This document shows positions 1 to 38,500 of a stretch of 64,000 bases of DNA, in pieces (within the stretch, counting starts at the first letter, position 1; every line of letters starts with the position of its first letter). This DNA is from Octopus sinensis. Taxonomy: Eukaryota. Position numbers and translations under genes: made by a program. The notes beneath the pieces were generated by a model. The model searched no databases, had not been told where the DNA came from, and was given only the letters and a program-made list of their open reading frames with translations. The stretch is taken from the NCBI RefSeq assembly GCF_006345805.1, contig NC_043023.1:16244001-16308000 (forward strand), in the 5' to 3' direction.

Positions 1-707
<707 letters not shown>

Positions 708-14613: not shown

Positions 14614-15720
14614 CTAATGAATGAGTCTGTGAGTGGTCAAGTGATCTATTTCAGAGAATGATTCACCACAGGTGTCACAATGATGTGACTTCACCCCTGA
14701 ATGAACACCTTTGTGTCTACTTAAATGTCCCTTTTGAGTGAATGATTTACTGCAGATATCACAGTGATATGGCTTTTCACCTGTATGAATACGTTTGTGA
14801 TTAGTTAAGTTAGCTTTTACAGAGAATGATTTACCACAGATATCACAGTGGTAAGGTTTCTCACCTGTATGGACAAATCTGTGAGTGGATAAGTCACCAC
14901 TTTGAGAGAATGATTTATCACAGATATCACATTGATATGGCTTCTCTCCTGTATGAATACGTTTATGTACAATTACACCACTTTTGTGAGTGAATGATTT
15001 ACCACAGATATCACAATGATAAGGTTTCTCTCCTGTATGAGTAAGTTTGTGCATAGCTAAGTTAACTCTCACGGAGAATGATTTACCACAGATATCACAC
15101 TCGTAAGGTTTCTCACCTGTATGAATAAGTTTGTGAGTAGCTATGTAACTATTTAGAGAGAATGATTTTTTACAGATATCACATTGATATGGATTCTCAC
15201 CTGTATGGGTACGTTTATGTACAGTTACAGCACTTCTGTGGGGGAATGTTTTACCACAGATATCACACTGATATGGTTTGTCTCCTGTATGGGTAAATCT
15301 GTGTGTAGCTAAAACAGCACTTTGAGAGAATGATTTACCACAGATATCACATTGATATGGTTTCTCTCCTGTATGGATAACCTTGTGAGCAGCTAAGTTA
15401 CCATCTCGAGAGAATGATTTACCACAGATATCACACTGAAATGGTTTCTCGCCTGTATGAATACGTTTATGTACAGTTACAGCACTTCTTTGAGCAAATG
15501 ATTTATCACAGATATCACAATGATGTGGCTTTTCCCCTGTATGAGTAAATTTGTGAGTAGCTAAGTTAACTTTCACAGAAAATGATCTACCACAGATATC
15601 ACACTGATAAGGTTTCTCACCTGTATGAATAAGTTTGTGAGTAGCTATGTAACTCTTTACAGAGAATGATTTACCACAGATATCACAGTCGTATACAGAT
15701 TTTCCTCTTTCTTTTGGCAT
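14614..15720 (-). CDS. C2H2 zinc-finger protein, copy 1 (368 aa, 13 fingers, no effector domain)
   Basis: First in-frame ATG at 15720 ([19 protein letters not shown]); 13 CxxC...HxxxH units with TGEKP-type linkers; AATAAA on minus at 14383-14388. Confidence 0.92.
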   Translation of the reverse strand: MPKERGKSVYDCDICGKSFSVKSYIATHKLIHTGEKPYQCDICGRSFSVKVNLATHKFTHTGEKPHHCDICDKSFAQRSAVTVHKRIHTGEKPFQCDICGKSFSRDGNLAAHKVIHTGEKPYQCDICGKSFSQSAVLATHRFTHTGDKPYQCDICGKTFPHRSAVTVHKRTHTGENPYQCDICKKSFSLNSYIATHKLIHTGEKPYECDICGKSFSVRVNLAMHKLTHTGEKPYHCDICGKSFTHKSGVIVHKRIHTGEKPYQCDICDKSFSQSGDLSTHRFVHTGEKPYHCDICGKSFSVKANLTNHKRIHTGEKPYHCDICSKSFTQKGHLSRHKGVHSGVKSHHCDTCGESFSEIDHLTTHRLIH

Positions 15721-16143
15721 CTCTGCAGCTAAAACTAACAAAACTCCAAGATTCTCACACAATTCCTCTTTCTGTAATTTTTTCTTCAACAAAGTGGTCT
15801 GGAAATTTCTTTCTTCTTGTTCTATATTTTATCCTAACAAATGTTACAACTGCCATATTTTATCAAATATAAGCTTTGCTGATATCTTCAGATGTTGCAA
15901 ATGTCTTTGTAAATTTATCCAAGTTTATTCAGAATTCAAATTTAGGTTGTACTCATTTCAGAGTGAATCCAAGAAATTTCACCAATAATGTCACTCAGAA
16001 GAAATATTTTACTGTAATTCACAGTTAATTTACATAAACAGGGTTCTTATATCCAGTTCTGTGTAACATCATCTTCAAAATATGATAAATATTGATGACG
16101 CTTCTGCAGTAAAATTCCTCTGATGCCAATGTCCTCTGATATT

Positions 16144-16963
16144 CTGAAATAAGAGAGAAACAACAGTTTAAGACAGAGTGTAGCTTGGTTATGACAAAGG
16201 CTTGGTGTTCATTTATATACGACATTTACTGCTAGATTTTTTTTTAAACAGGCTTCATGAAAATACAGACTCAATCTTATATGAACATGTATTTGAGAGG
16301 AGTTGAAGGCCTTCAACAGATAACATTGTGTAACAAGATTTTGGGCCTTGGGTCGCAATTGTTATTCCTTATTTGTTAACCCCTAGACAGTTTGAAAAGT
16401 AGCTAAGATCTCCCTCAAACTTTTCTTTTCTTATGATATTAATTCAAACCCCAAAGAATCCCTCTAAACCCACAGCTTTGGCACTCCCCACCACTTCTCC
16501 TGCTCATCATCAGAGATGCACATATTGTTAGTCACTAATGGACATGGTCAAGTGGTTATCGTCAAGCAACTGACAGGCAAATCTGTGGCATTGAGCAGAA
16601 TATTTGCTACAATATTTCTGCTTCAGCAACTCAGCACTGAAACCATTTGAAGTGGAAGGGAAACAGGTCAGTTTCAAAACATTGATGTCCAAGTAAACAG
16701 AATGATACGTACATAAGTAATATATATTTCTTTACCGCCCACAAGGGGCTAAACATAGAGGGGACAGACAAAGGAATTAAGTCGATTATATCGACCCCAG
16801 TGCGTAACTGGTACTTAATTTATTGACCCTGAAAGGCGAAGTCGACCTCAGCGGAATTTGAACTCAGAACGTAACGACAGACGAAGTACCGCTAGGCATT
16901 TCGCCCGGTGCGCTAACGTGTCTGCCAGCTCGCCGCCTTGGTACATAAGAAATATAGGCAGCC

Positions 16964-17009
<46 letters not shown>

Positions 17010-18244
17010 AAAGGAAGATTGAAGGACAGCACTATATACACACATGCACACTTCACACAAGGACACATAGAGAGACACACATCCATGCACAACAGATGTA
17101 TGCACAGTCACAAATACCCATACACAGACACACAAGGAGACAGACGTACACACACAAACACATGAATATGCAGAATACATACATAGATACGAACGTGCGG
17201 CTGCGTGGTAAGTAGCTTGCTTACCAACCACATGGTTCCGGGTTCAGTCCCACTGCGTGGCACCTTGGGCAAGTGTCTTCTACTTTAGCCTCGGGCCAAC
17301 CAGAGCCTTGTGAGTGGATTTGGTAGACGGAAACTGAAAGAAGCCCGTTGTATATATGTATATATATATATATAAATATATGTATGTTTGTGTGTCTGTG
17401 CTTGTCCCCCTAGCATTGCTTGACAACCGATGCTGGTGTGTTTATGTCCACATCACTTAGCGGTTCGGCAAAAGTGACCGATAGAATAAGTCCTGGGCTT
17501 ACAAAGAATAAGTCCCGGGTCGCGTTGCTCGATTAAAGGCAGTGCTCCAGCATGGCCGCAGTCAAATGACTGAAACAAGTAAAAGAGTAAAGAGTAAAAA
17601 TTTCAGTTATCTCTTTCTTTCACACATTACTCTCTCTCTGTCTCTTCACACACACTAACAGAAGCACTTCACTTACACAACATACTGTCTGTCTCCCACA
17701 CCCCCATCAAACACACACACACACACACACACATGTACATCAATGCTTCCCCTGGACGGTAACTTCAAAAGAACTTCCCTCGTCATACAATCGCCTTTTC
17801 TTAGTCTCTTTCGCTCTCATTACTTCAGAAGTTCCCGCAAGCCCATATGTAAAAAGAAAAAAATTTTTTACGGAAATCGACGGAAAGGTCTACTAGAGAC
17901 GAAAGATTGCCCCATGGCGTAACTTCGGTATAAGTACCGGATACATTTCAAGGTGTGTTTTTTTATATATGCGGGTTTAGGGTTAGGGGTGAGAGAAAAG
18001 GGGTTTCTGTTATCTCCAGAATATAAACAAAGTCAAGTGTGTACCTATACCGAAGGATCACCCTATTGGGTTTATTGTCTTCACTCAGTTTTTTTTCCCG
18101 ATAATTACTGAACAGAGAGAGAAAAAGAAAAAGAAGTGGATGTAAATAATACTGACACATTAATGATGAATCTACTGTAGAGACGGATGTCCAAATGAGA
18201 ACTTTAGCCAAGGTAGACAATGACGGAATATATATAACACTTAC
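16144..18244 (-). other. Putative 5'-UTR intron of ZNF copy 1
   Basis: Donor G/GTAAGTG at 18244 and acceptor TTCTCTCTTATTTCAG at 16144; equivalent sites at 25286/23199, 31800/29712 and 40475/36527. Confidence 0.6.
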
Positions 18245-19049
18245 CTATCGTTTATAGACCCTGTGGAGGAGGAAGATATCACAATAAATCCAAGGTGGAC
18301 AATGACAGTAAGCAGGTAACATAGATAGAGATCCAGCAAGGAACAAGTCGCAGTACGTTCAAGCAAGTCAGAAATTAAACCGAGGTCGACTTTGCCTTTC
18401 ATCCTTTCGGGGTCGATTAAATAAGTACCAGTTACGTACTGGGGTCGATGTAATCGACTTAATCCGTTTGTCTGTCCTTGTTTGTCCCCTATGTGTTTAG
18501 CCTGGTGGGTGGTAGCAAAGAAAGAAATAGGTATATAGGGTCCGGCAACGAAGTCGCAGAACGTTGAGGCAGACAGAACTTTAGCCAAGGAAGCGAATGA
18601 TGGCTTCGTAAGAAATTCTAGGTTTACCATGAATGCTGATTATATTATTAAGATCAACGTAGTAAAGAATGCAGGAGATAAATGATTGATATTGTTAATT
18701 AGCAATCACGTCTATTAAATTAAATGTTGGCTAATTATCTGTTAAACGAACGAGACAGGTGATAATGTAGGCGAGGGTCCATCAACGGCAGGGAATGAAA
18801 AATATTGCGGGAAAACGTACAATGGGGAAGTAACTCTGCATTTAAGCTGGGATTATCTAGAGTTCAGTGGGTACATCAGTTCGACGTGGTGGTCCTTCAG
18901 GAAGCTCTGAGTTTTATGAACTAATAAAGGTTCCACATTTTGGTACGAGGCCAGCAATATGGAGAAAGGGACGAGTCGATTACACCCACGTCCCTGTTTA
19001 TCTTGTACTTATCTTTTTTATTCGGTGGTGATAGGATGAAAAGTAAAGT

Positions 19050-19522
19050 GGATCTTTTCTGTTTGACCGGCAGTTTTTAAAAATAATTTCCACGTAACTA
19101 AACACTTTTCAACTTCCTATACTGGTAGAATGTGTTTATAAAGCATCTTTTTCTCTTGGCTTTATTGAGAAAATTCTGTAGTTTGTAAGATATTTGTTGT
19201 TTCTTTTCTTCAATTTCTGCAATTTCAACCAATCAATGACGTCTATTGAGGTAAAGAACATTCTGTGCCGTATGAAAATTCCCCTCGTTTAAAAAACAGA
19301 TTGGGTTTATTTACATTTCTGAAGAAAAAGGGATCTTTTCGGTTTGAACGGCAGTTTTTCTAGTGGTGTCATGAAATTGTCACCCATAATTATGACCCTA
19401 GTATCGATCTATTGCATTTCAATCTGTTTTAGGGTTATGAGTGGGGGGAAGGGTAATTTTCTTTTTTTTCCACAAATGTAAATAAACCCAATCTATTTCT
19501 TAAACGAGGGACATATTCATAC
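19050..19522. mobile_element. Composite of two opposed pieces of a TIR element (termini GGATCTTTTCnGTTTGAnCGGCAGTTTTT)
   Basis: Terminus at 19050 and again at ~19331; same composite at ~26088-26560 and 32599-33076; other pieces at 38450-38940, 39109-39397, 41199-41385. Confidence 0.7.
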
Positions 19523-20978
19523 TGCCTTTAAGCAGTACAAAAACAACAAAAAAGTGGAAGGTGCAGTTATGACAAAAGAAAAGCAGGACAAAAACGATGC
19601 ATGCAAATGGGTTGGCTGGAGGTAAATCTAGATGGAAAAGCATGAGGAATTTATGAGAACGCCCCTGGGACAATAATATATATATAATTATAACAAAGGG
19701 TTATTTGCAACAAGTTGCTTAAACCACATACCGAAAATATTAGAAATAGCAGCCAAATAGGCTACTATTACTATTACTACAAAAAGAAGTCTCCACAAAC
19801 AACAGTATTTGCAACCCGTATATGGTAGAAGGAATGAAGACAACGAAATCACACAGTCTACTTTATATATATATATATATATATACGCACGAGCAAAATG
19901 CACCCCCACCGTATAATGGAATGTGCTGAGTTGTCAAACATTTAAACCAAATTTTCTCAAGGCAACTTCTCCGACCGCTCCATAGGCCTCCCCTTTGAGA
20001 AACACTGATTTAACCTAAATTAGGGACACCAGCAAAAGAAGAAATAAAGATAGACTTTTTTTCTATTCCAAAGAAAAACGATTTTATTCACAAAAATATG
20101 CAACCGAAGAGTTTAAAGTACCAGTAATTATAAGGCTGTTGACTGGGAGAACACAAACATGTTTTAAACAGTAAGCTTGGCAGGAAAGAAATGTGCCTTT
20201 AAGCAGGACAAAAACAACAAATAATGGAAGGTGCAGTTATGTACAGGTTGACGGAAGAAAAGCAGGACAAAAACGGCTTTATTGATTGCATTCTCACCTG
20301 GAATCAATTTTTGTAATTTTTTCAAAGACTAATACACACCCTGATACAGTCGGTATCTACAAATCAAATTTAAGTGCAATCGGATGAATTATAAGGCTGT
20401 TGACTGGGAGAACACAAACATGTTTTAAACAGTAACGTGGCAGGAAGAAATTTGCCTTTAAGCATGACAAAACAACAAATATGGGAAGGTGCAGTTATGT
20501 ACAGGTTGACGGAAGAAAAGCAGGACAAAACGGCTTTATTGATTGCATCTCACCTGGAATCAATTTTGTATTTTTTCAAAGACTAATACACACCCGGATA
20601 CAGTCGGTATCTACAATCAAATTTAATTGCATCGGATTGGATGATGCCCGAATCCGAGAAGACACACATACAGACAGACATTAACGGATTTTATATAAGA
20701 GATTTATGAAAAACAGCTTTTATTAAAAATATCAGAATGTAGATATTGATGGGGATAAATAAAATATCGTGTTTTTGTTATATCTTCTTTATCATGTGGA
20801 TACATTTATTGTATATAATATTCCTTTCAACAAATGACTTTTGATATTGATACAGTCACTCTTCTCTATGATGAGAAATATATCTGTAGTTAATTGTCTT
20901 TTTTCAGAGAAGGATATACCACAGAATCAGTTACATGGTTTCTCTTCTATATCAATGTGTGTCTGTGTTTATCTAAGC

Positions 20979-21197
20979 CAGTGCTTTTCAAACTTTTTAC
21001 TAGAGCGAAACCCCAAGGAAACATTCCACTGGCTCGAGGAACCCCTGTGCAATAATTTAATAGTCTTATGCACACATATCTGCACAGGAGAATTAAAAAT
21101 AACTGCTGATTTTAGCAATTTTGCAACTTCTTGCGGAACCCCTGGACTGTGCTGGTGGAACCCTAAGGTTCTGTGGAACCCTGGTTGAAAACCACTG
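20979..21197. mobile_element. hAT (Charlie-like) MITE in the 3' UTR of ZNF copy 2 only
   Basis: TIRs CAGTGCTTTTCAAAC / CAGTGGTTTTCAACC; 8-bp flanks ATCTAAGC and ATCCAAGA; empty site ATCTAAGA in the other three copies. Confidence 0.88.
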
Positions 21198-21259
21198 ATC
21201 CAAGAGATTTATTTGAGAGAACCATTCACCACAGATATCACAATGACATGGTTTCTCTC

Positions 21260-22772
<1,513 letters not shown>

Positions 22773-25700
22773 CTCTGCAGCTAAAACTAACAAAACTCCA
22801 AGATTCTCACACAATTCCTCTTTCTGTAATTTTTTCTTCAACAAAAGGTCTGGAAATTTCATTTCTTCTTGTTTCTATATTTTATTCCTAACAAATGTTA
22901 CAACTGCCATATTTTTATCAAATATAAGCTTTGCTGATATCTTCAGATGTTGCAAATGTCTTTTTAAATTTATCCAAGTTTATTCAGAATTCAAATTTAG
23001 GTTGTACTCATTTCAGAGTGAATCCAAGAAATTTCACCAATAATGTCACTCAGAAGAAATATTTTACTGTAATTCACAGTTAATTTACATAAACAGGGTT
23101 CTTATATCCAGTTCTGTGTAACATCATCTTCAAAATATGATAAATATTGATGACGCTTCTGCAGTAAAATTCCTCTGATGCCAATGTCCTCTGATATTCT
23201 GAAATAAGAGAGAAACAACAGTTTAAGACAGAGTGTAGCTTTGGTTATGACAAAGGCTTGGTGTTCATTTATATACGACATTTACTGCTAGATTTTTTTT
23301 AAACAAGGCTTCATGAAAATACAGACTCAATCTTATATGAACATTGTATTTGAGAGGAGTTGAAGGCCTTCAACAGATAACATTGTGTAACAAGATTTTG
23401 GGCCTTGGGTAGCAATTGTTATTCCTTATTTGTTAACCCCTAGACAGTTTGAAAAGTAGCTAAGATCTCCCTCAAACTTTTCTTTTGTTATGATATTAAT
23501 TCAAACCCCAAAGAATCCCTCTAAACCCACAGCTTTGGCACTCCCCCCCCACTTCTCCTGCTCATCATCAGAGATGCACATATTGTTAGTCACTAAGGGA
23601 CATGGTCAAGTGGTTATCGTCAAGCAACTGACAGGCATATCTGTGGCATTGAGCAGAATATTTGCTACAATATTTCTGCTTCAGCAACTCAGCACTGAAA
23701 CCATTTGAAGTGGAAGGGAAACAGGTCAGTTTCAAAACATTGATGTCCAAGTAAACAGAATGATACGTACATAAGTAATATATATTTCTTTACCGCCCAC
23801 AAGGGGCTAAACATAGAGGGGACAGACAAAGGAATTAAGTCGATTATATCGACCCCATTGCGTAACTGGTACTTAATTTATTGACCCTGAAAGGCGAAGT
23901 CGACCTCAGCGGAATTTGAACTCAGAACGTAACGACAGACGAAGTACCGCAAGGCATTTCGCCCGGTTCGATAACGTGTCTGCCAGCTCGCCGCCTTGGT
24001 ACATAAGAAATATAGGCAGCCAAGCAAACACACACACACACGTGCAAAGGAAGATTGAAGGACAGCACTATATACACACATGCACACTTCACACAAGGAC
24101 ACATAGAGAGACACACATCCGTGCACAACAGATGTATGCACAGTCACAAATACCCATACACAGACACACTCAGACGTGCACACACAAGGAGACAGACGTA
24201 CACACACAAACACATGAATATGCAGAATACATACATAGATACAAACGTGCGGCTGTGTGGTAAGTAGCTTGCTTACCAACCACATGGTTCCGGGTTCAGT
24301 CCCACTGCGTGGCACCTTGGGCAAGTGTCTTCTACTTTAGCCTCGGGCCAACCAAAGCGTTGTGAGTGGATTTGGTAGACGGAAACTGAAAGAAGCCCGT
24401 TGTATATATGTATATATATATATAAATATATGTATGTTTGTGTGTCTGTGTTTGTCCCCCTAGCATTGCTTGACAACCGATGCTGGTGTGTTTATGTCCA
24501 CATCACTTAGCGGTTCGGCAAAAGTGACCGATAGAATAAGTACTGGGCTTACAAAGAATAAGTCCCGGGTCGCGTTGCTCGATTAAAGGCGGTGCTCCAG
24601 CATGGCCGCAGTCAAATGACTGAAACAAGTAAAAGAGTAAAGAGTAAAAATTTCAGTTATCTCTTTCTTTCACACATTACTCTCTCTCTGTCTCTTCACA
24701 CACACTAACAGAAGCACTTCACTTACACAACATACTGTCTGTCTCCCACACCCCCATCAAACACACACACACACACACATGTACATCAATGCTTCCCCTG
24801 GACGGTAACTTCAAAAGAACTTCCCTCGTCATACAATCGCCTTTTCTTAGTCTCTTTCGCTCTCATTACTTCAGAAGTTCCCGCAAGCCCATATGTAAAA
24901 AGAAAAAAATTTTTTACGGAAATCGACGGAAAGGTCTACTAGAGACGAAAGATTGCCCCATGGCGTAACTTCGGTATAAGTACCGGATACATTTCAAGGT
25001 GTTTTTTTATATATGCGGGTTTAGGGTTAGGGGTGAGAGAAAAGGGGTTTCTGTTATCTCCAGAAATATAAACAAAGTCAAGTGTGTACCTATACCGAAG
25101 GATCACCCTATTGGGTTTGTCTTCACTCAGTTTTTTTTTCCCGATAATTTACTGAACAGAGAGAAAAAGAAAAAGAAGTGGATGTAAATAATACTGACAC
25201 ATTAATGATGAATCTACTGTAGAGACGGATGTCCAAATGAGAACTTTAGCCAAGGTAGACAATGACGGAATATATATAACACTTACCTATCGTTTATAGA
25301 CCCTGTGGAGGAGGAAGATATCACAATAAATCCAAGGTGGACAATGACAGTAAGCAGGTAACATAGAGATCCAGCAAGGAACAAGTCGCAGTACGTTCAA
25401 GCAAGTCAGAAATTAAACCGAGGTCGACTTTGCCTTTCATCCTTTCGGGGTCGATTAAATAAGTACCAGTTACGTACTGGGGTCGATATAATCGACTTAA
25501 TCATCCGTTTGTCTGTCCTTGTTTGTCCCCTATGTGTTTAGCCCCTGGTGGGTAGTAAAGAAATAGGTATATAGGATCCGGCAACGAAGTCGCAGAACGT
25601 TGAGGCAGTCAGAACTTTAGCCAAGGAAGCGAATGATGGCTTCGTAAGAAATTCTAGGTTTTACCATGAATGCTGATTTATATTATTAAGATCAACGTAG

Positions 25701-26891
25701 TAAAGAATGCAGGAGATAAATGATTGATATTGTTAATTAGCAATCACGTCTATTAAATTAAATGTTGGCTAATTATCTGTTAAACGAACGAGACACGTGA
25801 TAATGTAGGCGAGGGTCCATCAACGGCAGGGAATGAAAAATATTGCGGGAAAACGTACAATGGGGAAGTAACTCTGCATTTAAGCTGGGATTATCTAGAG
25901 TTCAGTGGGTACATCAGTTCGACGTGGTGGTCCTTCAGGAAGCTCTGAGTTTTATGAACTAATAAAGGTTCCAAATTTTGGTACGAGGCCAGCAATATGG
26001 AGAAAGGGACGAGTCGATTACACCCACGTCCCTGTTTATCTTGTACTTATCTTTTTTATTCGGTGGTGAAAGAATGAAAAGCAAAGTGGATCTTTTCTGT
26101 TTGACCGGCAGTTTTTTAAAATAATTTCCACGTAACTAAACACTTTTCAACTTCCTATACTGGTAGAATGTGTTTATAAAGCATCTTTTTCTCTTGGCTT
26201 TATTGAGAAAATTCTATAGTTTGTAAGATATTTGTTGTTTCTTTTCTTCAATTTCAGCAATTTCAACCAATCAATGACGTCTATTGAGGTAAAGAACATT
26301 CTGTGCCGTATGAAAATGCCCCTCGTTTAAAAAACAGATTGTGTTTATTTACATTTCTGAAGAAAAAGGGATGTTTTCGGTTTGAACGGCAGTTTTTCTA
26401 GTGGTGTCATGAAATTGTCACCCATAATTATGACCCTAGTATCGATCTATTGCATTTCAATCTATTTTAGGGTTATGAGTGGGGGGAAGGGTAATTTTCT
26501 TTTTTTTCCACAAATGTAAATAAACCCAATCTGTTTGTTAGACGAGGGACATATTCATACTGCCTTTAAGCAGTACAAAAACAACAAAAAAATGGAAGGT
26601 GCAGTTATGACAAAAGAAAAGCAGGACAAAAACGATGCATGCAAATGGGTTGGCTGGAGGTAAATCTAGATGGAAAAGCATGAGGAATTTATGAGAACGC
26701 CCCTGGGACAATAACATATATATAATTATAATAAAGGGTTATTTGCAACAAGTTGCTTAAACCACATACCGAAAATATTAGAAATAGCAGCCAAATAGGC
26801 TACTATTACTATAAAAATAAGTCTCCACAAACAACAGTATTTGCAACCCGTATATGGTAGAAGGAAGGAAGACAACGAAATCACACAGTCT

Positions 26892-26930
<39 letters not shown>

Positions 26931-27841
26931 GAGCAAAATGCACCCCCACCGTATAATGGAATGTGCTGAGTTGTCAAACATTTAAACCAAATTTTCTCAA
27001 GGCAACTTCTCCGACCGCTCCATAGGCCTCCCCTTTGAGAAACACTGATTTAACCTAAATTAGGGACACCAGCAAAAGAAGAAATAAAGATAGACTTTTT
27101 TTCTATTCCAAGGAAAAACGATTTTATTCACAAAAATATGCAACCGAAGAGTTTAAAGTACCAGTAATTATAAGGCTGTTGACTGGGAGAACACAAACAT
27201 GGTTTAAACAGTAAGCTTGGCAGGAAAGAAACGTGCCTTTAAGCAGGACAAAAACAACAAAAAATGGAAGGTGCAGTTATGTACAGGTTGACGGAGGAAA
27301 ACCAGGACAAAAACGGCTTTATTGATCGCATTTTCACCTGGAATATATTATTGTAATTTTTTCTCACCTGGAATCGATTTTTGTAATTTTTTCAAAGACT
27401 AATACACGCCCTGATATCGTCGGTATCTACATATAAAATTTAAGTGCAATCGGATGGAGGATGCCCAAAATCCGAGAAGACACACAGACAGACAGACAGA
27501 ACGGATTTTATATAAGAGATTATGAAAAACAGCTTTTATTAAAAATATCAGAATGGTAGATAAATAAAAAATATAGTATTTTGTTATATCTTTATTATCA
27601 TCTGGATACATTTATTGTTATATAAGATATTCCTTTCAACAAATGACTTTTGATATTGATACAGTCACTCTTCTCTATGATGAGAAATATATCTGTAGTT
27701 AATTGTCTTTTTTCAGAGAAGGATATACCACAGAATCAGTTACATGGTTTCTCTTCTATATCGATGTGTGTCTGTGTTTATCTAAGAGATTTATTTGAGA
27801 GAACCATTCACCACAGATATCACAATGACATGGTTTCTCTC

Positions 27842-29284
27842 CTAATGAATGAGTCTGTGAGTGGTCAAGTGCTCTATTTCAGAGAATGATTCACCACAGG
27901 TGTCACAATGATGTGACTTCACCCCTGAATGAATACATTTGTGTTTATTTAAATGTCCCATTTGAGTGAATGATTCACCACAGATATCACAGTGATAAGG
28001 CTTTTCGCCTGTATGAGTACATTTGTGATTAGTTAAGTTAGCTTTTACAGAGAATGATTCACCACAGGTGTCACAATGATGTGATTTCATTCCTGAAGGA
28101 ATACATTTGTGTCTACTTAATTGTCCCTTTTGAATGAATGATTTACTGCAAATATCACAGTGATATGGTTTCTCACCTGTATGGATAAACCTGTGAGTGG
28201 ATAAGTCACCACTTTGAGAGAATGATTTATCACAGATATCACATTGATATGGTTTCTCACCTGTATGAGTACGTTTATGTACAGTTACAGCACTTCTGTG
28301 AGTGAATGATTTACCACAGATACCACAGGAATATGGCTTTTCTCCTGTATGAGTAAATTTGTGGGTAGCTAGGTCACTATTTCGAGAGAATGATTTACCA
28401 CAGATATCACACTGATAAGGTTTCTTGCCTGTATGAGTATGTCTGTGTTTAGCTAAGTCACTATTTCGAGTGAATGATTTACCACAGATATCACAGGAAT
28501 ATGGCTTTTCTCCTGTATGAATACGTCTGTGACAAGTTAAACCACTACAATTAGAAAATGATTTACCACAGATATCACACTGATGGGGTTTCTCGCCAGT
28601 ATGAGTATGTCTGTGTTTAGCTAAGTCACCGTTTCGAGAGAATGATTTACCGCAGATATCACACTGATATGGTTTCTCTCCCGTATGAATAACTTTGTGT
28701 GTCGCTAAGTTAACTCTCACAGAGAATGATTTACCACAGATATCACACTGATAAGGTTTCTCTCCTGTATGAATACGTCTGTGACAAGTTAAACCACTAC
28801 AATTAGAAAATGATTTACCACAGATATCACAATGATATGGTTTCTCTCCCGTATGAATAACTTTGTGTGTCGCTAAGTTAACTCTCACAGAGAATGATTT
28901 ACCACAGATATCACACTGATATGGTTTCTCTCCTGTATGAATACGTCTGTGACAAGTTAAACCACTACAATTAGAAAATGATTTACCACAGATATCACAA
29001 TGATATGGTTTATCGCCTGTATGACTAAGTTTGTGAGTAGCTATGTAACTCTTTAGAGAGAATGATTTACCACAGATATCACAATGATATGGTTTCTCTC
29101 CTGTATGAGTAAGTTTGTGTTTAGTTACGTGACTGTTTTGAGTGAATGATTTACCACAGATATCACATTGATATGGTTTGTCTCCTGTATGACTAAGTTT
29201 GTGAGTAGCTATGTAACTCTTTAGAGAGAATGATTTACCACAGATATCACAGTCGTATACAGATTTTCCTCTTTCTTTTGGCAT
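27842..29284 (-). CDS. C2H2 zinc-finger protein, copy 3 (480 aa, 17 finger units, unit 14 degenerate)
   Basis: ATG at 29284; open frame; unit 14 ends HKCIP, lacking the second His. Confidence 0.92.
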   Translation of the reverse strand: MPKERGKSVYDCDICGKSFSLKSYIATHKLSHTGDKPYQCDICGKSFTQNSHVTKHKLTHTGEKPYHCDICGKSFSLKSYIATHKLSHTGDKPYHCDICGKSFSNCSGLTCHRRIHTGEKPYQCDICGKSFSVRVNLATHKVIHTGEKPYHCDICGKSFSNCSGLTCHRRIHTGEKPYQCDICGKSFSVRVNLATHKVIHTGEKPYQCDICGKSFSRNGDLAKHRHTHTGEKPHQCDICGKSFSNCSGLTCHRRIHTGEKPYSCDICGKSFTRNSDLAKHRHTHTGKKPYQCDICGKSFSRNSDLATHKFTHTGEKPYSCGICGKSFTHRSAVTVHKRTHTGEKPYQCDICDKSFSQSGDLSTHRFIHTGEKPYHCDICSKSFIQKGQLSRHKCIPSGMKSHHCDTCGESFSVKANLTNHKCTHTGEKPYHCDICGESFTQMGHLNKHKCIHSGVKSHHCDTCGESFSEIEHLTTHRLIH

Positions 29285-32200
29285 CTCTGCAGCTAAAACT
29301 AACAAAATTCCAAGATTCTCACACAATTCCTCTTTCTGTAATTTTTTCTTCAACAAAATGGTCTGGAAATTTCCTTTCTTCTTGTTTCTATATTTTATTC
29401 CTAACAAATGTTACAACTGCCATATTTTTATCAAATATAAGCTTTGCTGATATCTTCAGATGTTGTAAATGTCTTTTTAAATTTATCCAAGTTTATTCAG
29501 AATTCAAATTTAGGTTGTACTCGTTTCAGAGTGAATCCAAGAAATTTCACCAATAATGTCACTCAGAAGAAATATTTTACTGTAATTCACAGTTAATTTA
29601 CATAAACAGGGTTCTTATATCCAGTTCTGTGTAACATCATCTTCAAAATATGATAAATATTGATGACGCTTCTGCAGTAAAATTCCTCTGATGCCAATGT
29701 CCTCTGATATTCTGAAATAAGAGAGAAAAAACAGTTTAAGACAGAGTGTAGCTTTGGTTATGACAAAGGCTTGGTGTTCATTTATATACGACATTTACTG
29801 CTAGATTTTTTTTAAACAAGGCTTCATGAAAATACAGACTCAATCTTATATGAACATTGTATTTGAGAGGAGTTGAAGGCCTTCAACAGATAACATTGTG
29901 TAACAAGATTTTGGGCCTTGGGTAGCAATTGTTATTCCTTATTTGTTAACCCCTAGACAGTTTGAAAAGTAGCTAAGATCTCCCTCAAACTTTTCCCTTC
30001 TTATGATAATAATTCAAACCCCAAAGAATCCCTCTAAACCCACAGCTATGGCACTTCCCCCCCACTTCTCCTGCTCATCATCAGAGATGCACATATTGTT
30101 AGTCACTAAGGGACATGGTCAAGTGGTTATCGTCAAGCAACTGACAGGCAAATCTGTGGTATTGAGCAGAATATTTGCTACAATATTTCTGCTTCAGCAA
30201 CTCAGCACTGAAACCATTTGAAGTGGAAGGGAAACAGGTCAGTTTCAAAACATTGATGTCCAAGTAAACAGAATGATACGTACATAAGTAATATATATTT
30301 CTTTACCGCCCACAAGGGGCTAAACATAGAGGGGACAGACAAAGGAATTAAGTCGATTATATCGACCCCAGTGCGTAACTGGTACTTAATTTATTGACCC
30401 TGAAAGGCGAAGTCGACCTCAGCGGAATTTGAACTCAGAACGTAACGACAGACGAAGTACCGCTAGGCATTTCGCCCGGTGCGCTAACGTGTCTGCCAGC
30501 TCGCCGCCTTGGTACATAAGTAATATAGGCAGCCAAGCAAACACACACACACACACACACGTGCAAAGGAAGATTGAAGGACAGCACTATATACACACAT
30601 GCACACTTCACACAAGGACACATAGAGAGACACACATCCATGCACAACAGATGTATGCACAGTCACAAATACCCATACACAGACACACTCAGACGTGCAC
30701 ACACAAGGACACAGACGTACACACACAAACACATGAATATGCAGAATACATACATAGATACAAACGTGCGGCTGTGTGGTAAGTAGCTTGCTTACCAACC
30801 ACATGGTTCCGGGTTCAGTCCCACTGCGTGGCATCTTGGGCAAGTGTCTTCTACTGTAGCCTCGGGCCAACCAGAGCCTTGTGAGTGGATTTGGTAGACG
30901 GAAACTGAAAGAAGCCCGTTGTATATATGTATATATATATATAAATATATGTATGTTTGTGTGTCTGTGTTTGTCCCCCTAGCATTGCTTGACAACCGAT
31001 GCTGGTGTGTTTATGTCCACATCACTTAGCGGTTCGGCAAAAGTGACCGATAGAATAAGTACTGGGCTTACAAAGAATAAGTCCCGGGTCGCGTTGCTCG
31101 ATTAAAGGCAGTGCTCCAGCATGGCCGCAGTCAAATGACTGAAACAAGTAAAAGAGTAAAGAGTAAAAATTTCAGTTATCTCTTTCTTTCACACATTACT
31201 CTCTCTCTGTCTCTTCACACACACTAACAGAAGCACTTCACTTACACAACATACTGTCTGTCTCCCACACCCCATCAAACACACACACACATGTACATCA
31301 ATGCTTCCCCTGGACGGTAACTTCAAAAGAACTTCCCTCGTCATACAATCGCCTTTTCTTAGTCTCTTTCGCTCTCATTACTTCAGAAGTTCCCGCAAGC
31401 CCATATGTAAAAAGAAAAAAATTTTTTACGGAAATCGACGGAAAGGTCTACTAGAGACGAAAGATTGCCCCATGGCGTAACTTCGGTATAAGTACCGGAT
31501 ACATTTCAAGGTGTTTTTTTATATATGCGGGTTTAGGGTTAGGGGTGAGAGAAAAGGGGTTTCTGTTATCTCCAGAAATGTAAACAAGGTCAAGTGTGTA
31601 CCTATACCGAAGGATCACCCTATTGGGTTTATTGTCTTCACTCAGTTTTTTTTCCCGATAATTTACTGAACAGAGAGAAAAAGAAAAAGAAGCGGAGGTA
31701 AATAATACTGACACATTAATGATGAATCTACTGTAGAGACGGATGTCCAAATGAGAACTTTAGCCAAGGTAGACAATGACGGAATATATATAACACTTAC
31801 CTATCGTTTATAGACCCTGTGGAGGAGGAAGATATCACAATAAATCCAAGGTGGACAATGACAGTAAGCAGGTAACATAGAGATCCAGCAAGGAACAAGT
31901 CGCAGTACGTTCAAGCAAGTCAGAAATTAAACCGAGGTCGACTTTGCCTTTCATCCTTTCGGGGTCGATTAAATAAGTACCAGTTACGTACTGGGGTCGA
32001 TGTAATCGACTTAATCCGTTTGTCTGTCCTTGTTTGTCCCCTCTGTGTTTAGCCCCTGGTGGGTAGCAAAGAAATAGGTATATAGGATCCGGCAACGAAG
32101 TCGCAGAACGTTGAGGCAGTCAGAACTTTAGCCAAGGAAGCGAATGATGGCTTCGTAAGAAATTCTAGGTTTTACCATGAATGCTGATTTATATTTTTAA

Positions 32201-34470
32201 GATCAACGTGGTAAAGAATGCAGGAGATAAATGATTGATATTGTTAATTAGCAATCACGTCTATTAAATTAAATGTTGGCTAATTATCTGTTAAACGAAC
32301 GAGACAGGTGATAATGTAGGCGAGGGTCCATCAACGGCAGGGAATGAAAAATATTGCGGGAAAACGTACCATGGGGAAGTAACTCTGCATTTAAGCTAGG
32401 ATCATCTAGAGTTCAGTGGGTACATCAGTTCGACGTGGTGGTCCTTCAGGAAGCTCTGAGTTTTATGAACTAATAAAGGTTCCAAATTTTGGTACGAGGC
32501 CAGCAATTTGGAGAAAGGGACGAGTCGATTACACCGACGTCCCTGTTTATCTTGTACTTATCTTTTTTATTCGGTGGTGAAAGGATGAAAAGTAAAGTGG
32601 ATCTTTTCTGTTTGACCGGCAGTTTTTTAAAATAATTTCCACGTAACTAAACACTTTTAAACTTCGTATACTGGTAGAATGTGTTTATAAAGCATCTTTT
32701 TCTCTTGGCTTTATTGAGAAAATTCTGTAGTTTGTAAGATATTTGTTGTTTCTTTTCTTCAATTTCTGCAATTTCAACCAATCAATGACGTCTATTGAGG
32801 TAAAGAACATTCTGTGCCGTATGAAAATGCCCCTCGTTTAAAAAACAGATTGGGTTTATTTACATTTCTGAAGAAAAAGGGATCTTTTCGGTTTGAACGG
32901 CAGTTTTTCCTAGTGGTGTCATATGAAATTGTCACCCATAATTATGACCCTAGTATCGATCTATTGCATTTCAATCTGTTTTAGGGTTAGGGTTGGGGGG
33001 AAGGGTATCTTTCTTTTTTTTTTCCACAAATGTAAATAAACCCAATCTATTTCTTAAACGAGGGACATATTCATACTGCCTTTAAGCAGTACAAAAACAA
33101 CAAAAAAATGGAAGGTGCAGTTATGACAAAAACGATGCATGCAAATGGGTTGGCTGGAGGTAAATCTAGATGGAAAAGCATGAGGAATTTATGAGAACGC
33201 CCCTGGGACAATAATATATATATAATTATAACAAAGGGTTATTTGCAACAAGTTGCTTAAACCACATACCGAAAATATTAGAAATAGCAGCCAAATAGGC
33301 TACTATTACTATTACTACAAAAAGAAGTCTCCACAAACAACAGTATTTGCAACCCGTATATGGTAGAAGGAAGGAAGACAACGAAATCACACAGTCTACT
33401 TTATATATATATATATATACACATGAGCAAAATACCCCCTCCTCCCGGCCGTCCAATGGAATGTGCTGAGTTGTCAAACATTTAAACCAAATTTTCTCAA
33501 AACAACTTGTCCGACCGCTCCATAGGCCTCCCCTTTGAGAAACACTGATTTAACCTAAATTAGGGACACCAGCAAAAGAAGAAATAAAGGTAGACTTTTT
33601 TTCTATTCCAAGGAAAAACGATTTTATTCACAAAAATATGCAACCGAAGAGTTTAAAGTACCAGTAATTATAAGGCTGTTGACTGGGAGAACACAAACAT
33701 GGTTTAAACAGTAAGCTTGGCAGGAAAGAAACGTGCCTTTAAGCAGGACAAAAACAACAAAAAATGGAAGGTGCAGTTATGTACAGGTTGACGGAGGAAA
33801 ACCAGGACAAAAACGGCTTTATTGATCGCATTTTCACCTGGAATATATTATTGTAATTTTTTCTCACCTGGAATCGATTTTTGTAATTTTTTCAAAGACT
33901 AATACACGCCCTGATATCGTCGGTATCTACATATAAAATTTAAGTGCAATCGGATGGAGGATGCCCGAAATCCGACAAGACACACAGACAGACAGACAGA
34001 ACGGATTTTATATAAGAGATTATGAAAAACAGCTTTTATTAAAAATATCAGAATGGTAGATAAATAAAAAATATAGTATTTTGTTATATCTTCTTTATCA
34101 TCTGGATACATTTATTGTTATATAAGATATTCCTATCAACAAATGACTTTTGATATTGATACAGTCACTCTTCTCTATGATGAGAAATATATCTGTAGTT
34201 AATTGTCTTTTTTCAGAGAAGGATATACCACAGAATCAGTTACATGGTTTCTCTTCTATATCGATGTGTGTCTGTGTTTATCTAAGAGATTTATTTGAGA
34301 GAACCATTCACCACAGATATCACAATGACATGGTTTCTCTCCTAATGAATGAGTCTGTGAGTGGTCAAGTGCTCTATTTCAGAGAATGATTCACCACAGG
34401 TGTCACAATGATGTGACTTCACCCCTGAATGAATACATTTGTGTTTATTTAAATGTCCCATTTGAGTGAA

Positions 34471-36120
34471 TTATTCACCACAGATATCACAGTGATAAGG
34501 CTTTTCGCCTGTATGAGTACGTTTGTGATTAGTTAAGTTAGCTTTTACAGAGAATGATTCACCACAGGTGTCACAATGATGTGATTTCATTCCTAAAGGA
34601 ATACATTTGTGTCTACTTAATTGTCCCTTTTGAATGAATGATTTACTGCAAATATCACAGTGATATGGCTTTTCACCTGTATGAATACGTTTGTGATTAG
34701 TTAAGTTAGCTTTTACAGAGAATGATTTACCACAGATATCACAGTGGTAAGGTTTCTCACCTGTATGGATAAACCTGTGAGTGGATAAGTCACCACTTTG
34801 AGAGAATGATTTATCACAGATATCACATTGATATGGTTTCTCACCTGTATGAGTACGTTTATGTACAGTTACAGCACTTCTGTGAGTGAATGATTTACCA
34901 CAGATATCACAGGAATATGGCTTTTCTCCTGTATGAGTAAATTTGTGGGTAGCTAGGTCACTATTTCGAGAGAAGGATTTACCACAGATATCACATTGAT
35001 ATGGTTTCTCACCTGTATGAGTAAGTCTGTGTATAGTTAAGTTACCTTTCAAAGGAAATAATTTACCACAGATATCACACTGATAAGGTTTCTTGCCTGT
35101 ATGAGTATGTTTGTGTTTAGCTAAGTCACCGTTTCGAGAGAATGATTTACCGCAGATATCACACTGGTAAGGTTTCTCCCCTGTATGAGTGAGTTTGTGT
35201 GTAACTAAGTACTCACATCGAGAGAATGATTTACTACAGATATCACAGTGATATGGTTTCTCTCCTGTATGAATACGTTTATGTATAGTTACAGCACTTC
35301 TTCGAGTGAATGATTTACCACAGATATCACACTGATAAGGTTTCTCCCCTGTATGAATACGTCTGTGACACGTTAAACCACTACAATTAGAAAATGATTT
35401 ACCACAGATATCACAATGATATGGTTTATCGCCTGTATGAGTAAGTTTGTGAGTAGCTATGTTACTCTTTAGAGAGAATGATTTACCACAGATATCACAA
35501 TGATATGGTTTCTCTCCTGTATGAGTAAGTTTGTGTTTAGTTACGTTACTGTTTTGAGTGAATGATTTACCACAGATATCACACTGATAAGGTTTCTCCC
35601 CTGTATGAGTAAGTTTGTGTGTAGTTAAGTTACCTTTGAAAGAAAATAATTTACCACAGATATCACACTGATAAGGTTTCTTGCCTGTATGAGTATGTCT
35701 GTGTTTAGTTAAGGCACCATTTCGAGAGAATGATTTACCACAGATATCACACTGATATGGTTTCTCTCCTGTATGAATACGTCTGTGACAAGTTAAACCA
35801 CTACAATTAGAAAATGATTTACCACAGATATCACAATGATATGGTTTCTCCCCTGTATGAATACGTCTGTGACAAGTTAAACCACTACAATTAGAAAATG
35901 ATTTACCACAGATATCACACTGATAAGGTTTCTCCCCTGTATGAATACGTCTGTGACACGTTAAACCACTACAATTAGAAAATGATTTACCACAGATATC
36001 ACAATGATATGGTTTCTCTCCTGTATGAGTAAGTTTGTGAGTAGCTATGTTACTCTTTAGAGAGAATGATTTACCACAGATATCACAGTCGTATACAGAT
36101 TTTCCTCTTTCTTTTGGCAT
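34471..36120 (-). CDS. C2H2 zinc-finger protein, copy 4 (549 aa; 19 complete units, nonsense codon in unit 20 of 21)
   Basis: ATG at 36120; TCA->TAA at 34471-34473 relative to copy 3; paralogous stop at 34342. Confidence 0.88.
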   Translation of the reverse strand: MPKERGKSVYDCDICGKSFSLKSNIATHKLTHTGEKPYHCDICGKSFSNCSGLTCHRRIHTGEKPYQCDICGKSFSNCSGLTCHRRIHTGEKPYHCDICGKSFSNCSGLTCHRRIHTGEKPYQCDICGKSFSRNGALTKHRHTHTGKKPYQCDICGKLFSFKGNLTTHKLTHTGEKPYQCDICGKSFTQNSNVTKHKLTHTGEKPYHCDICGKSFSLKSNIATHKLTHTGDKPYHCDICGKSFSNCSGLTCHRRIHTGEKPYQCDICGKSFTRRSAVTIHKRIHTGEKPYHCDICSKSFSRCEYLVTHKLTHTGEKPYQCDICGKSFSRNGDLAKHKHTHTGKKPYQCDICGKLFPLKGNLTIHRLTHTGEKPYQCDICGKSFSRNSDLATHKFTHTGEKPYSCDICGKSFTHRSAVTVHKRTHTGEKPYQCDICDKSFSQSGDLSTHRFIHTGEKPYHCDICGKSFSVKANLTNHKRIHTGEKPYHCDICSKSFIQKGQLSRHKCIPLGMKSHHCDTCGESFSVKANLTNHKRTHTGEKPYHCDICGE

Positions 36121-36619
36121 CTCTGCAGCTAAAACTAACAAAACTCCAAGATTCTCACACAATTCCTCTTTCTGTAATTTCTTTATTCAACAAAATGGTC
36201 TGGAAATTTCATTTCTTCTTGTTTCTATATTTTATTCCTAACAAATGTTACAACTGCCATATTTTTTATCAAATATAAGCTTTACTGATATCTTTAAGAT
36301 GTAAAGTTTATTCAGAATACAAATTTAGGTTTTACCCATTTCAGAGTGAATCCAAGAAATTTCACCAATAATGTCACTCAGAAGAAATATTTTACAGTAA
36401 TTCACAGTTAATTTACATAAACAGGGTTCTTATATCCAGTTCTGTGTGACATCGTCTTCAAAATATGATAAACATTGATGACGCTTCTGCAGTAAAATTC
36501 CTCTGATGCCAATGTCCTCTGATATTCTGAAATAAGAGAGAAACAACAGTTTAAGACAGAGTGTAGCTTTGGTTATGACAAAGGCTTGGTGTTCATTTAT
36601 ATACGACATTTACTGCCAC

Positions 36620-37225
36620 TGTTGTATTTAGGAATGGTCATTTTGCCAGTTTAGCCAATAAAAACACACGCACTATATATTTGGTGTTACTTTGCTTCAG
36701 TGTTATTTATTTTTTACATTAATCCTTAATCTTATTTCGGCCAGAGTTCTTTCGTCACAATCCTGTGACCTCATCATTTTTATATTATTATTATTATACA
36801 TAAATACATAATAATAATAATAATAATAATAAGTAGGAGTAAACACATGAACAAAATAAAAATAAACAAAAACAAATTACACGAACGTATATAAACAGGA
36901 GATACAAATATTACTGGCTATTTCTCCACCCCACTAACTAAACATAGGCATACATAGAGGTATACGCATGCGCAAATGAAGACGCATACAATAGGAATAC
37001 AAAATACAAAATGGTTGATTGTTAGTAAGGAGAGACACACAAATAAGAAAGAAGAAAGCAAAGGACCACTGATGCGGTCACAGGAGTGTGACGAAAGAAC
37101 TCTGGCCGAAATAAGATTAGGATTAATGTAAAAAATAAATAACGTTGAAGCAAAGTAACACCAAATATATAGTGCGTGTGTTTTTATTGGCTTAACTGGC
37201 AAAATGACCATTCCTAAATACAACA
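36620..37225. mobile_element. Fold-back insertion (~155-bp arms) with degenerate hammerhead motifs, probably Penelope-derived
   Basis: Arms 36620-36776 and 37070-37225; plus strand CCA-CTGATGC-G-GTCAC-AGGAGT-GTGAC-GAAA-GAAC-TC-TGG; present only in the copy 4 intron. Confidence 0.7.
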
Positions 37226-38500
37226 ATGTCTGTTTCAACACACGACTTCACATCAAAAATCTTGCAAAACAAATATATAAACGTAAAAATAATTTGCTAC
37301 ATTTTTAACAAAGCTTCAGAAAATACAGACTCAATCTTATATGAACATAGGCGCAGGAGTGGCTGTGTGGTAAGTAGCTTGCTTACCAACCACATGGTTC
37401 CAGGTTCAGTCCCACTGCGTGGCACATTGGGCAAGTGTCTTCTACTATATCCTTGTGCCGACCAAAGCCTTGTGAGTGGATTTGGTAGACGGAAACTGAA
37501 AGAAGCCCGTTGTATATATGTATATATATGCGCGTGTGTGTGTTTGTCCCCCTAGCATTGCTTGACAACCGATGCTGGTGTGTTTACGTCCCCGTAACTT
37601 AACGGTTTGGCAAAAGAGACCGATAGAATAAGTACTGGGCTTACAAAGAATAAGTCCCGGGGTCGAGTTGCTCAACTAAAGGCGGTGCTCCAGCATGGCC
37701 GCAGTCAAATGACTGAAACAAGTAAAAGAGTAAAAGAGTATTGTATTTGAGAGGAGTTGAAGGCCTTCAACAGATAACATTGTATAACAAGATTTTGGGC
37801 CTTTGGTAGCAATTGTTATTTCCTACATGCTTACCCCTAGAAAGTGGAGGCGCAATGGCCCAGTGGAGTCAACAGATGATCAAGCAGCTTTGTATCACCT
37901 TGAAAAGAGTCTAAAAAGGGCCAGAGTTGGAAGAATCTCTCAATCATTTCGTAAGTACTGGACCAACAGGATTTATTTCTTTGTATAAGGTTTGTTTGTT
38001 CCTTCTCGAGCCACACCTAGCTCATAAGGGCTAGTTTCCCAGTTTCCTTTGTTTATAGGTTCCCCACCTGGATGGGACGTCAGTCCGTCGCAGGTGAGCT
38101 GCAAGATGCAGGAGGAAAGAATAAGAGAAAGTTGTGGCGAAAGAGTCAGCAGAAGTTTGCCATTGCCTTCTGCCAGAGCCGCAAGGAGCTTAGGTGTTTC
38201 GCTCATAAACACACGCATCGCCCTGTCTGAGATTTGAACCCGTGATCCCTCGACTGCAAGTCCGCTGCTCTAACCACCAGGCCATGTGCCTCTACTTTTG
38301 TATAAGGTGCAAAGGTGTTTTTCCCCAAAGTTTGCCCACAAGTTTTAATGATTTTAGCTTGCCCATCAATATATTAATTTTTCAAGCAGAACTTTCTGCC
38401 TGTCGAGATGAGCAGAAACAGCTAGATTGAATTAATGAGAGGCACATCCAATCAATGTTATTGATTGGTTGAAATTGCCGAAAATTAACAAATTAAACGA

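What the first reader, a model, noticed from the sequence alone, without database searches (positions are those of the whole stretch)
14614..36120. Zinc-finger arrays re-ordered from a shared finger set inside near-identical tandem units
Seen: the ~5-kb DNA between arrays is almost identical in all three repeats, yet the arrays differ in length (13, ~18, 17, 21 units) and order while reusing the same recognition helices (SNCSGLTC, SVRVNLA, SRN[G/S]DLA, HRSAVTV, SQSGDLST, SVKANLTN, S[L/V]KS[Y/N]IAT). The scaffold TGTGATATCTGTGGTAAATCATT is nearly invariant even at silent sites. Copies 1-3 share the 5' side and copies 2-4 the far 3' side. Inference: unequal crossover or conversion inside the 84-bp finger minisatellite, so each duplication yields a chimeric protein with new DNA specificity. 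Established: PRDM9 arrays evolve this way and octopus C2H2 genes are greatly expanded; these proteins show no KRAB/SCAN/SET domain.
Basis: partly seen in the sequence, partly recalled or inferred. Interest (0 to 1): 0.75.

Follow-up and report, generated by a model that had tools for sequence, protein, structure and literature searches.

The report
Octopus zinc-finger genes swapping finger blocks
Four neighbouring copies of a zinc-finger gene, likely from an octopus, sit in nearly identical DNA but carry different strings of the same DNA-reading modules, likely because misaligned recombination adds, drops and swaps modules as already described for mouse zinc-finger clusters; part of one copy is likely garbled by sequencing errors.

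Summary
Confirmed in the assembly: four minus-strand C2H2 genes with 13, 18, 17 and 21 fingers, spacers 1.5-2.1% apart. Fingers group by helix type, not by gene. Order is not free: a conserved backbone is edited by block gains, losses and replacements. The same DNA block occurs four more times in the assembly with only two genes, so two genes likely grew to four. One of those copies has a 485-bp tract of 30 changes, 25 matching array 2: conversion or a polishing artefact. Fingers 1-12 of array 2 hold 32 small indels, likely sequencing errors. No KRAB, SCAN or PR/SET match was found; this is not PRDM9, and positive selection is not shown. The crossovers that made the extra copies cannot be placed inside the arrays. 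Mouse KZFP clusters show the same finger-level plasticity (PMC5363842), and this scan noted it at other loci of this genome. Reads, polymorphism, expression and targets are untested.

The parts
34342..36120 (-). Gene A4 coding region: MPKERGKSVYD start plus 21 C2H2 fingers; TCA>TAA in finger 20 (34473-34471) leaves 19 fingers. First gene of the block; positional counterpart of the 23-finger gene B1 in the other copies
27842..29284 (-). Gene A3 coding region, 17 fingers, open frame; fingers 4-7 are a repeated pair; fingers 11-17 are within 0-2 nt of A4 fingers
21260..22772 (-). Gene A2 coding region, 18 fingers, frame broken as assembled
21746..22739 (-). A2 fingers 1-12: 23 deletions and 9 insertions of 1-2 nt in 994 nt, likely unpolished assembly error; fingers 13-17 are all 84 nt
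14614..15720 (-). Gene A1 coding region, 13 fingers, open frame; last gene of the block, counterpart of the 7-finger gene B2
15721..21259 (.). Spacer S1 (upstream region of A1 and 3' flank of A2), with a MITE and a local duplication at about 20126-20637
22773..27841 (.). Spacer S2 (upstream region of A2 and 3' flank of A3)
29285..34341 (.). Spacer S3 (upstream region of A3 and 3' flank of A4); contains dispersed repeats; no Pfam match above cut-off in its 57 sense frames of 30 aa or more
31801..32392 (-). Candidate promoter and non-coding first exon of A3, ending at a GTAAGT donor, CpG observed/expected about 0.95; copies at 18245-18843, 25287-25881 and 40476-41070. Predicted, no RNA evidence
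29285..29711 (-). Predicted 427-nt untranslated start of the coding exon of A3, after a TTTCAG acceptor conserved in distant paralogs; equivalent acceptors at 16143, 23198 and 36526
20978..21197 (.). 220-bp MITE-like insertion with inverted ends in the 3' UTR of A2 only; the same insertion at the same site lies in two long-array paralogs at G000:C27 16.08 and 16.66 Mb
27611..27616 (-). AATAAA about 225 nt after the A3 stop (equivalents start at 14388, 20810, 34116); candidate polyadenylation signal

Best explanation
This is a young tandem run of four poly-C2H2 zinc-finger genes with no detected effector domain, likely from an octopus, that likely grew from a two-gene block by unequal crossover and whose arrays were likely then edited by out-of-register recombination and gene conversion between 84-bp fingers. 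Shown: the anatomy, the two-gene state in four other assembled copies of the block, finger types shared across genes, repeated single fingers and finger pairs, a stable 3' block with a variable 5' half, and mosaic markers. Inferred: misaligned pairing of the finger repeats, with breakpoints in the conserved linker and CxxC stretch between helices, adds, drops or replaces whole fingers in frame, so copies about 2% apart encode different strings of contact residues and would bind different DNA. The proteins are likely DNA-binding regulators, possibly of transposons (untested). The broken part of A2 is likely assembly error.
For: Spacers 1.5-2.1% apart but only 8-15 fingers in common order among A1-A4 and B1. 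Gene labels change 30 times on the tree of 57 fingers against 29.4 +/- 1.9 for shuffled labels; mean distance is 16.0 within genes and 15.9 between, per 66 nt. A4 fingers 2-4, A4 1-2 versus 8-9 and A3 4-5 versus 6-7 are internal repeats 0-3 nt apart. Over 74 junctions, linkers differ by 0.57 nt when both flanking helices match, 2.8 or 3.7 when one does and 4.8 when neither does (pairs are not independent). A4's upstream 10 kb matches B1's at 93-96%, and the DNA past A1, including the histone-gene region, matches that past B2. G000:C6399 and C6400 differ by 84 substitutions in 28.5 kb, 30 of them in one 485-bp tract in fingers 9-14; 25 of the 30 match A2. A2 shares a 3' UTR MITE with two long-array paralogs, and its last fingers side with A1 at six sites where A3 and A4 agree. 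Framework codons look purified (pN 0.014-0.042, pS 0.05-0.20). Only 3 pairs of identical units among 85 fingers argue against assembler stutter.
Against: One assembly and no reads on the arrays. The assembly is locally noisy (A2 fingers 1-12; 17-19 one- or two-base gaps in S1). The four B1 copies are identical over 2.2 kb around the start while flanks further out differ by 1-2%, as short-read polishing of repeats would also produce, so the 485-bp tract may be artefact. The crossover that made A2 and A3 cannot be placed inside the array. Contact-site pN exceeds overall pS at p<0.05 in 1 of 8 pairs, uncorrected and outside this window (D2-D3, 1.46, p=0.033); A3-A4 gives 0.33 and D1-D1b 0.30. A dispersed paralog (D4) is also rearranged (8-9 of 22 fingers in common order), so tandem position is not required. 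The organism is inferred from recall and earlier notes; no call named it.
Confidence: 0.75

Rival explanations
1. Much of the difference is assembly artefact: noisy long-read consensus, haplotypes placed in tandem, and short-read polishing that mixes paralogous fingers.
For: 32 indels in 994 nt of A2 against 6 expected at a generous spacer rate (P about 2e-12 for 30 or more); A2 fingers 11-12 repeat fingers 13-14 right at the edge of the noisy stretch; identical cores among four B1 copies; the conversion tract is about one sequencing insert long.
Against: Three spacers are all 1.5-2.1% apart, more copies than two haplotypes of one locus allow; A1 and A3 are open over 1.1-1.4 kb and A4 has one stop; repeated fingers differ at silent sites; B1's order is the same in four separately assembled copies; different finger types are about 24% apart, likely too far for polishing to interconvert.
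Confidence: 0.1
2. The arrays are old paralogs that diverged by ordinary finger gain and loss, and only their flanks look young because conversion homogenises the spacers.
For: The window block and the B blocks differ by about 5% in outer flanks while 5' UTRs of A1-A3 and B1 differ by 0.5-1.2%; A1 and A4 are the two old parent genes, so their array difference is not recent; the A2 MITE shared with a long-array paralog differs from it at about a dozen sites.
Against: A3 and A4 share fingers 0-2 nt apart at shifted positions and internal repeats are 0-3 nt apart, so those events are as young as the spacers; long-array paralogs D1, D1b, D2 and D3 keep 21-26 of 27-28 fingers in order at 5-9% flank divergence.
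Confidence: 0.1
3. A PRDM9-like system: a hypervariable coding minisatellite under positive selection at DNA-contact residues that directs recombination.
For: 84-nt coding repeat; contact positions are the most variable (entropy 2.2-2.9 bits at -1, +2, +3, +6); on spanning-tree edges of 8 or fewer differences contact pN is 0.058 against pS 0.031, from only 5.3 silent changes.
Against: 0 of 14 PR-domain matches in the genome lie on C27; no KRAB, SSXRD or SET match in 81 upstream frames; within-array identity 76-78%; share of diversity at contact sites 0.30-0.34, at the bottom of the 0.29-1.0 range given for full-length PRDM9.
Confidence: 0.03

Closest known systems
Young mouse KRAB-zinc-finger clusters (Kauzlaric 2017, PMC5363842: passages and section 7 read whole; bioRxiv 10.1101/2025.02.26.640358: passages)
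   Same: Close paralogs with conserved flanks and plastic arrays: single fingers repeated up to 4 times, blocks of 2-7 repeated, duplications and deletions; segmental duplication of multi-gene blocks; array on one 3' exon.
   Different: No KRAB match here; the protein is 11 residues plus fingers; the upstream exon looks non-coding. In mouse, strain differences and transposon binding are measured; here neither is.
Coleoid and octopus C2H2 expansion (PMC12513265: abstract, section 8, part 1 of 2 of section 12; PMC9068888: passages; PMC10547256: passages and section 6)
   Same: Clustered, lineage-specific poly-C2H2 genes; 1,453 C2H2 proteins counted for O. bimaculoides; predicted motifs enriched in transposons for octopus.
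   Different: The parts read treat whole genes (counts, trees, expression, predicted motifs) and do not describe finger-level rearrangement between young copies.
PRDM9 zinc-finger minisatellite (bioRxiv 10.64898/2026.09.07.749791: passages; PMC3890296: search listing only)
   Same: 84-bp coding repeat that changes in length and order; most variation at positions -1, +2, +3, +6.
   Different: No KRAB, SSXRD or PR/SET domain found; many paralogs rather than one gene; fingers are divergent types (76-78% identity) rather than a homogenised repeat; low share of diversity at contact sites.
Hybrid genes from unequal crossover between tandem paralogs, such as globin Lepore/anti-Lepore (recalled, no call)
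   Same: Inner copies carry the upstream region of the last gene and the downstream region of the first.
   Different: Here the shared stretch contains an internal repeat, so exchanges can also be out of register.

Membership tests
Poly-C2H2 (Kruppel-type) zinc-finger genes | Tandem CxxC-x12-H-x3-H fingers with TGEKPY-type linkers in one frame | tested here: met
   Pfam zf-H2C2_2 E 8e-109 and zf-C2H2 E 1e-70 for A1
Octopus C2H2 expansion | Belongs to a large clustered family in a coleoid genome | tested here: inconclusive
   17 hits at 92% or more covering most of the 5' flank query and 21 distant hits at 67-74% in a 2.72-Gb genome; protein searches returned no cephalopod name among 120 rows listed; octopus rests on recall and earlier notes
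KRAB/SCAN zinc-finger genes | N-terminal KRAB or SCAN domain | tested here: not met
   0 of 81 sense frames of 30 aa or more from S3 and 36121-38400 reach a Pfam cut-off; none among the 25 of 35 families shown for A1; frames under 30 aa and 38.4-41 kb were not scanned
KRAB/SCAN zinc-finger genes | Finger-level duplication, deletion and replacement among close paralogs | tested here: met
KRAB/SCAN zinc-finger genes | Binds and represses transposons through a co-repressor | not testable with these tools
   Needs binding and knock-down data; motif prediction was not run
PRDM9 | KRAB + SSXRD + PR/SET domains ahead of the array | tested here: not met
   0 of 14 PF21549 matches on C27
PRDM9 | Diversity concentrated at -1, +2, +3, +6 | tested here: inconclusive
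   0.30-0.34 here; full-length PRDM9 spans 0.29-1.0, truncated forms 0.16-0.78; my measure may differ in detail
PRDM9 | Positive selection at contact residues | tested here: inconclusive
   1 of 8 pairs at p<0.05 uncorrected, outside the window; A3-A4 ratio 0.33
PRDM9 | Array alleles polymorphic within the species | not testable with these tools
   No second individual could be compared; C6399 versus C6400 may be alleles or copies

The most novel reading that the evidence does not exclude
Effector-less octopus zinc-finger tandems are population-level hypervariable loci: a clade-specific library of about a dozen finger types is recombined within and between paralogs fast enough that animals differ in their sets of DNA-binding proteins, with the 3' block held fixed and the 5' half searching new targets such as young SINEs and MITEs, a KRAB-free parallel to young mouse KZFP clusters.
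Probability: 0.2. Interest if true: 0.6.

Novelty: new member of a known kind. Interest (0 to 1): 0.3.

Why it matters
It shows how a large non-vertebrate zinc-finger family can renew its contact-residue strings faster than point mutation, and this locus has an unusual built-in control: the same DNA block with two genes elsewhere in the genome, plus older paralogs that stayed mostly collinear. That makes rates of finger gain, loss and conversion measurable once long reads from several animals are at hand. The process itself is known from mouse clusters, and similar cases were already noted in this genome, so surprise is modest.

Tried and rejected
Read-level check of the arrays: no reads were laid, so A2's indels, A4's stop and the finger orders remain unverified. 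Protein searches with A1: whole protein gave generic vertebrate and insect zinc-finger proteins at 35-58% identity from 7,939 scored candidates; its last 47 residues gave none; no ortholog from another cephalopod could be compared. Free permutation of fingers: rejected, common order exceeds shuffles at P<=0.06 in all 6 window pairs (A2's types were assigned by hand), although the 5' halves of A2-A3, A3-A4 and A3-B1 share no more adjacencies than chance. Alternative last exons of one promoter: rejected for A1-A4, each has its own candidate first exon; still open for B2, which lacks it. Hidden N-terminal domain in the conserved 427 nt before the ATG: no open frame through it, and indels break frames among paralogs. 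Special constraint on the 23-nt scaffold: not supported, Thr and Pro linker codons are about as uniform in distant paralogs. A second assembled copy of the window's spacer: only the 3 window copies at 97% or more among 40 scored candidates. Literature: searches listed no paper on finger-level shuffling in cephalopods; the library lacks most subscription papers, one paper id was not held, and no supplements were read, where such an analysis could stand.

Full report
Observation. The window holds four minus-strand arrays of 84-nt C2H2 units: A4 (36120-34342, 21 fingers, TAA in finger 20), A3 (29284-27842, 17, open), A2 (22772-21260, 18) and A1 (15720-14614, 13, open). All begin MPKERGKSVYD and end at the same stop. 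The three spacers differ by 1.7%, 2.1% and 1.5% in gap-free columns. The scaffold motif is exact in 36 of 69 fingers and one base off in 17, but linker silent sites vary and the same scaffold codons dominate 105 fingers of distant paralogs. That the animal is an octopus rests on recall and on earlier notes; protein searches named no cephalopod.

Gene anatomy (predicted, no RNA). Each unit has a roughly 600-nt element with CpG observed/expected near 0.95 that ends at a GTAAGT donor. It has 8 near full-length copies in the assembly among 40 scored candidates, one before each of A1-A4 and each B1 copy. An acceptor about 405-425 nt before the ATG (427 in A3) is conserved in distant paralogs, and the stretch after it has no through frame. 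AATAAA follows about 225 nt after the stop. So each copy is likely a two-exon gene whose protein is 11 residues plus fingers. None of 81 upstream sense frames reaches a Pfam cut-off and 0 of 14 PR-domain matches lie on this chromosome.

Origin of the four copies. The 5' flank has 17 matches at 92% or more over most of the query. Four of the loci (G000:C6399, C6400, C27 at 16.43 and 16.50 Mb) carry a two-gene block, a 23-finger gene B1 (frameshifted in finger 2 in all four) followed by a 7-finger gene B2. A4's upstream 10 kb matches B1's at 93-96% and the DNA beyond A1, including the histone-gene region, matches that beyond B2. A2 and A3 have the upstream region of the last gene and the far 3' flank of the first, the pattern expected from unequal crossover between the two genes (inference).

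Finger-level change. Using 57 of 69 window fingers (A2 fingers 1-12 left out), 37 have their nearest neighbour in another gene, 12 in the same gene and 8 tie; gene labels are as mixed on the tree as shuffled labels (30 against 29.4 +/- 1.9). With letters for types: A4 IGGGHLMIGAQHLKAEBCBCF, A3 IMIGDGDHGHKAECBCF, A2 MGHLDAQHHLKAKAE.CF (assigned by hand), A1 IBAa.AIDAEBCF, B1 B?MADAGRHLDAQHbKAEcCBCF. Common order exceeds shuffles, for example 13 against 7.3 for A3-A4; the 3' block is stable and the 5' half carries single-finger and two-finger repeats 0-3 nt apart. Over 74 junctions the linker resembles another linker most when both neighbouring helices match (0.57 nt), partly when one does (2.8, 3.7) and least when neither does (4.8), which fits breakpoints between helices (pairs not independent). 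A1-A4 and B1 share 8-15 fingers in order at 0.5-4.0% flank divergence, whereas D1, D1b, D2 and D3 share 21-26 of 27-28 at 5-9%; D4, also dispersed, shares only 8-9 of 22. Flank divergence is an imperfect clock if conversion acts on it.

Exchange between paralogs. C6399 and C6400 differ by 84 substitutions in 28.5 kb, at most 7 per 500-nt bin except one bin with 30, inside B1 fingers 9-14. Of the 30, 25 match A2 and 17 match A4. This looks like a conversion tract, but the four B1 copies are identical over 2.2 kb around the start, as polishing would also give, so artefact is open. Independent of that, A2 alone in the window carries a 220-bp MITE-like insertion at the same site as two long-array paralogs (3 of 18 genes).

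Assembly quality. A2 fingers 1-12 hold 23 deletions and 9 insertions of 1-2 nt in 994 nt, while fingers 13-17 are all 84 nt; S2 and S3 differ by 6 such indels in 5 kb. A local tenfold or greater excess with sharp edges is more likely consensus error than decay (inference). Against wider artefact: three mutually distinct spacers, long open frames, 82 unique among 85 clean fingers and the same B1 type order in four copies. No reads were laid.

Selection. Framework codons look purified in all 8 pairs. Contact-site pN over all-site pS is 0.33 (A3-A4), 1.10 (A4-B1), 0.43 (A1-B2), 1.30 (A1-A4, poorly matched), 1.46 (D2-D3, p=0.033 uncorrected), 1.36, 0.90 and 0.30. Positive selection is not shown. 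Fingers within an array are 76-78% identical and contact sites carry 0.30-0.34 of diversity, at the bottom of the range for full-length PRDM9 (passages).

Comparison. Mouse KZFP clusters show fingers repeated up to four times and blocks of 2-7 repeated among close paralogs (PMC5363842, section 7) and strain-specific fingerprint arrays after block duplications (bioRxiv 10.1101/2025.02.26.640358, passages). This locus works like those but is not a KZFP, and it is not PRDM9. The octopus expansion and a predicted transposon bias are published (PMC12513265, PMC9068888, PMC10547256; parts read listed under Closest known systems). Seven searches listed no paper on finger-level shuffling in cephalopods, within a library that lacks most subscription papers; supplements were not read. 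Earlier notes of this scan report the same pattern at three other loci of this genome, unchecked by me at those loci.

Verdict. Real in the assembly, mechanism likely recombination among finger repeats (0.75), a new member of a known kind, interest 0.3.

Noticed in passing
window 396-707 (+), 4281-4658 (-), 4929-5306 (+): Intronless histone H4-, H2B- and H2A-like genes (named by recall from the translations); this region is duplicated together with the zinc-finger block at the B loci.
   Followed up: partly
G000:C6399, C6400, C27:16.42-16.45 Mb and 16.49-16.52 Mb (L031-L034, L041-L049): Four copies of a block of 20 kb or more at 97.3-99.5% identity; all carry the same degenerate, frameshifted finger 2 in B1, and B2 lacks the candidate first exon through a 3-kb gap, so it may be promoterless or spliced from B1.
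   Followed up: partly
G000:C27 16.08 Mb and 16.66 Mb (L038, L037): Two long-array paralogs in opposite orientation 575 kb apart, with identical 5' flanks over 427 nt, 28 of 28 fingers in common order and the same MITE.
   Followed up: partly
L034 (C27b), B1 fingers 11-15: A second small cluster of 11 substitutions against C6400 in the same part of the array as the C6399 tract; donor not sought.
   Followed up: no
window 29285-29743 and loci L019-L030: The non-coding 430 nt before the ATG stays 67-74% identical in zinc-finger genes on at least five other chromosomes-scale contigs, without an open frame; possibly a conserved UTR element.
   Followed up: partly
after each stop codon, e.g. window 27740-27841: One further complete and one degenerate finger lie past the shared stop, out of frame by a 1-nt deletion common to the subfamily.
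   Followed up: no
window 8863-9477 (-) and 46769-47380 (-): Open frames that resemble a PIF1/Helitron-type helicase piece and a piggyBac-type transposase piece (recall; not searched).
   Followed up: no
window 60744-62499, 58680-60361, 11757-12234: A 16-nt-based satellite of about 113 units with higher-order periods, 496-nt and 234-nt tandem repeats, and a 107-nt tandem repeat.
   Followed up: no
window 31924-32081: A roughly 160-nt dispersed repeat, 92-97% identical at many loci and often in 184-nt tandems, sits inside the candidate first exon.
   Followed up: no
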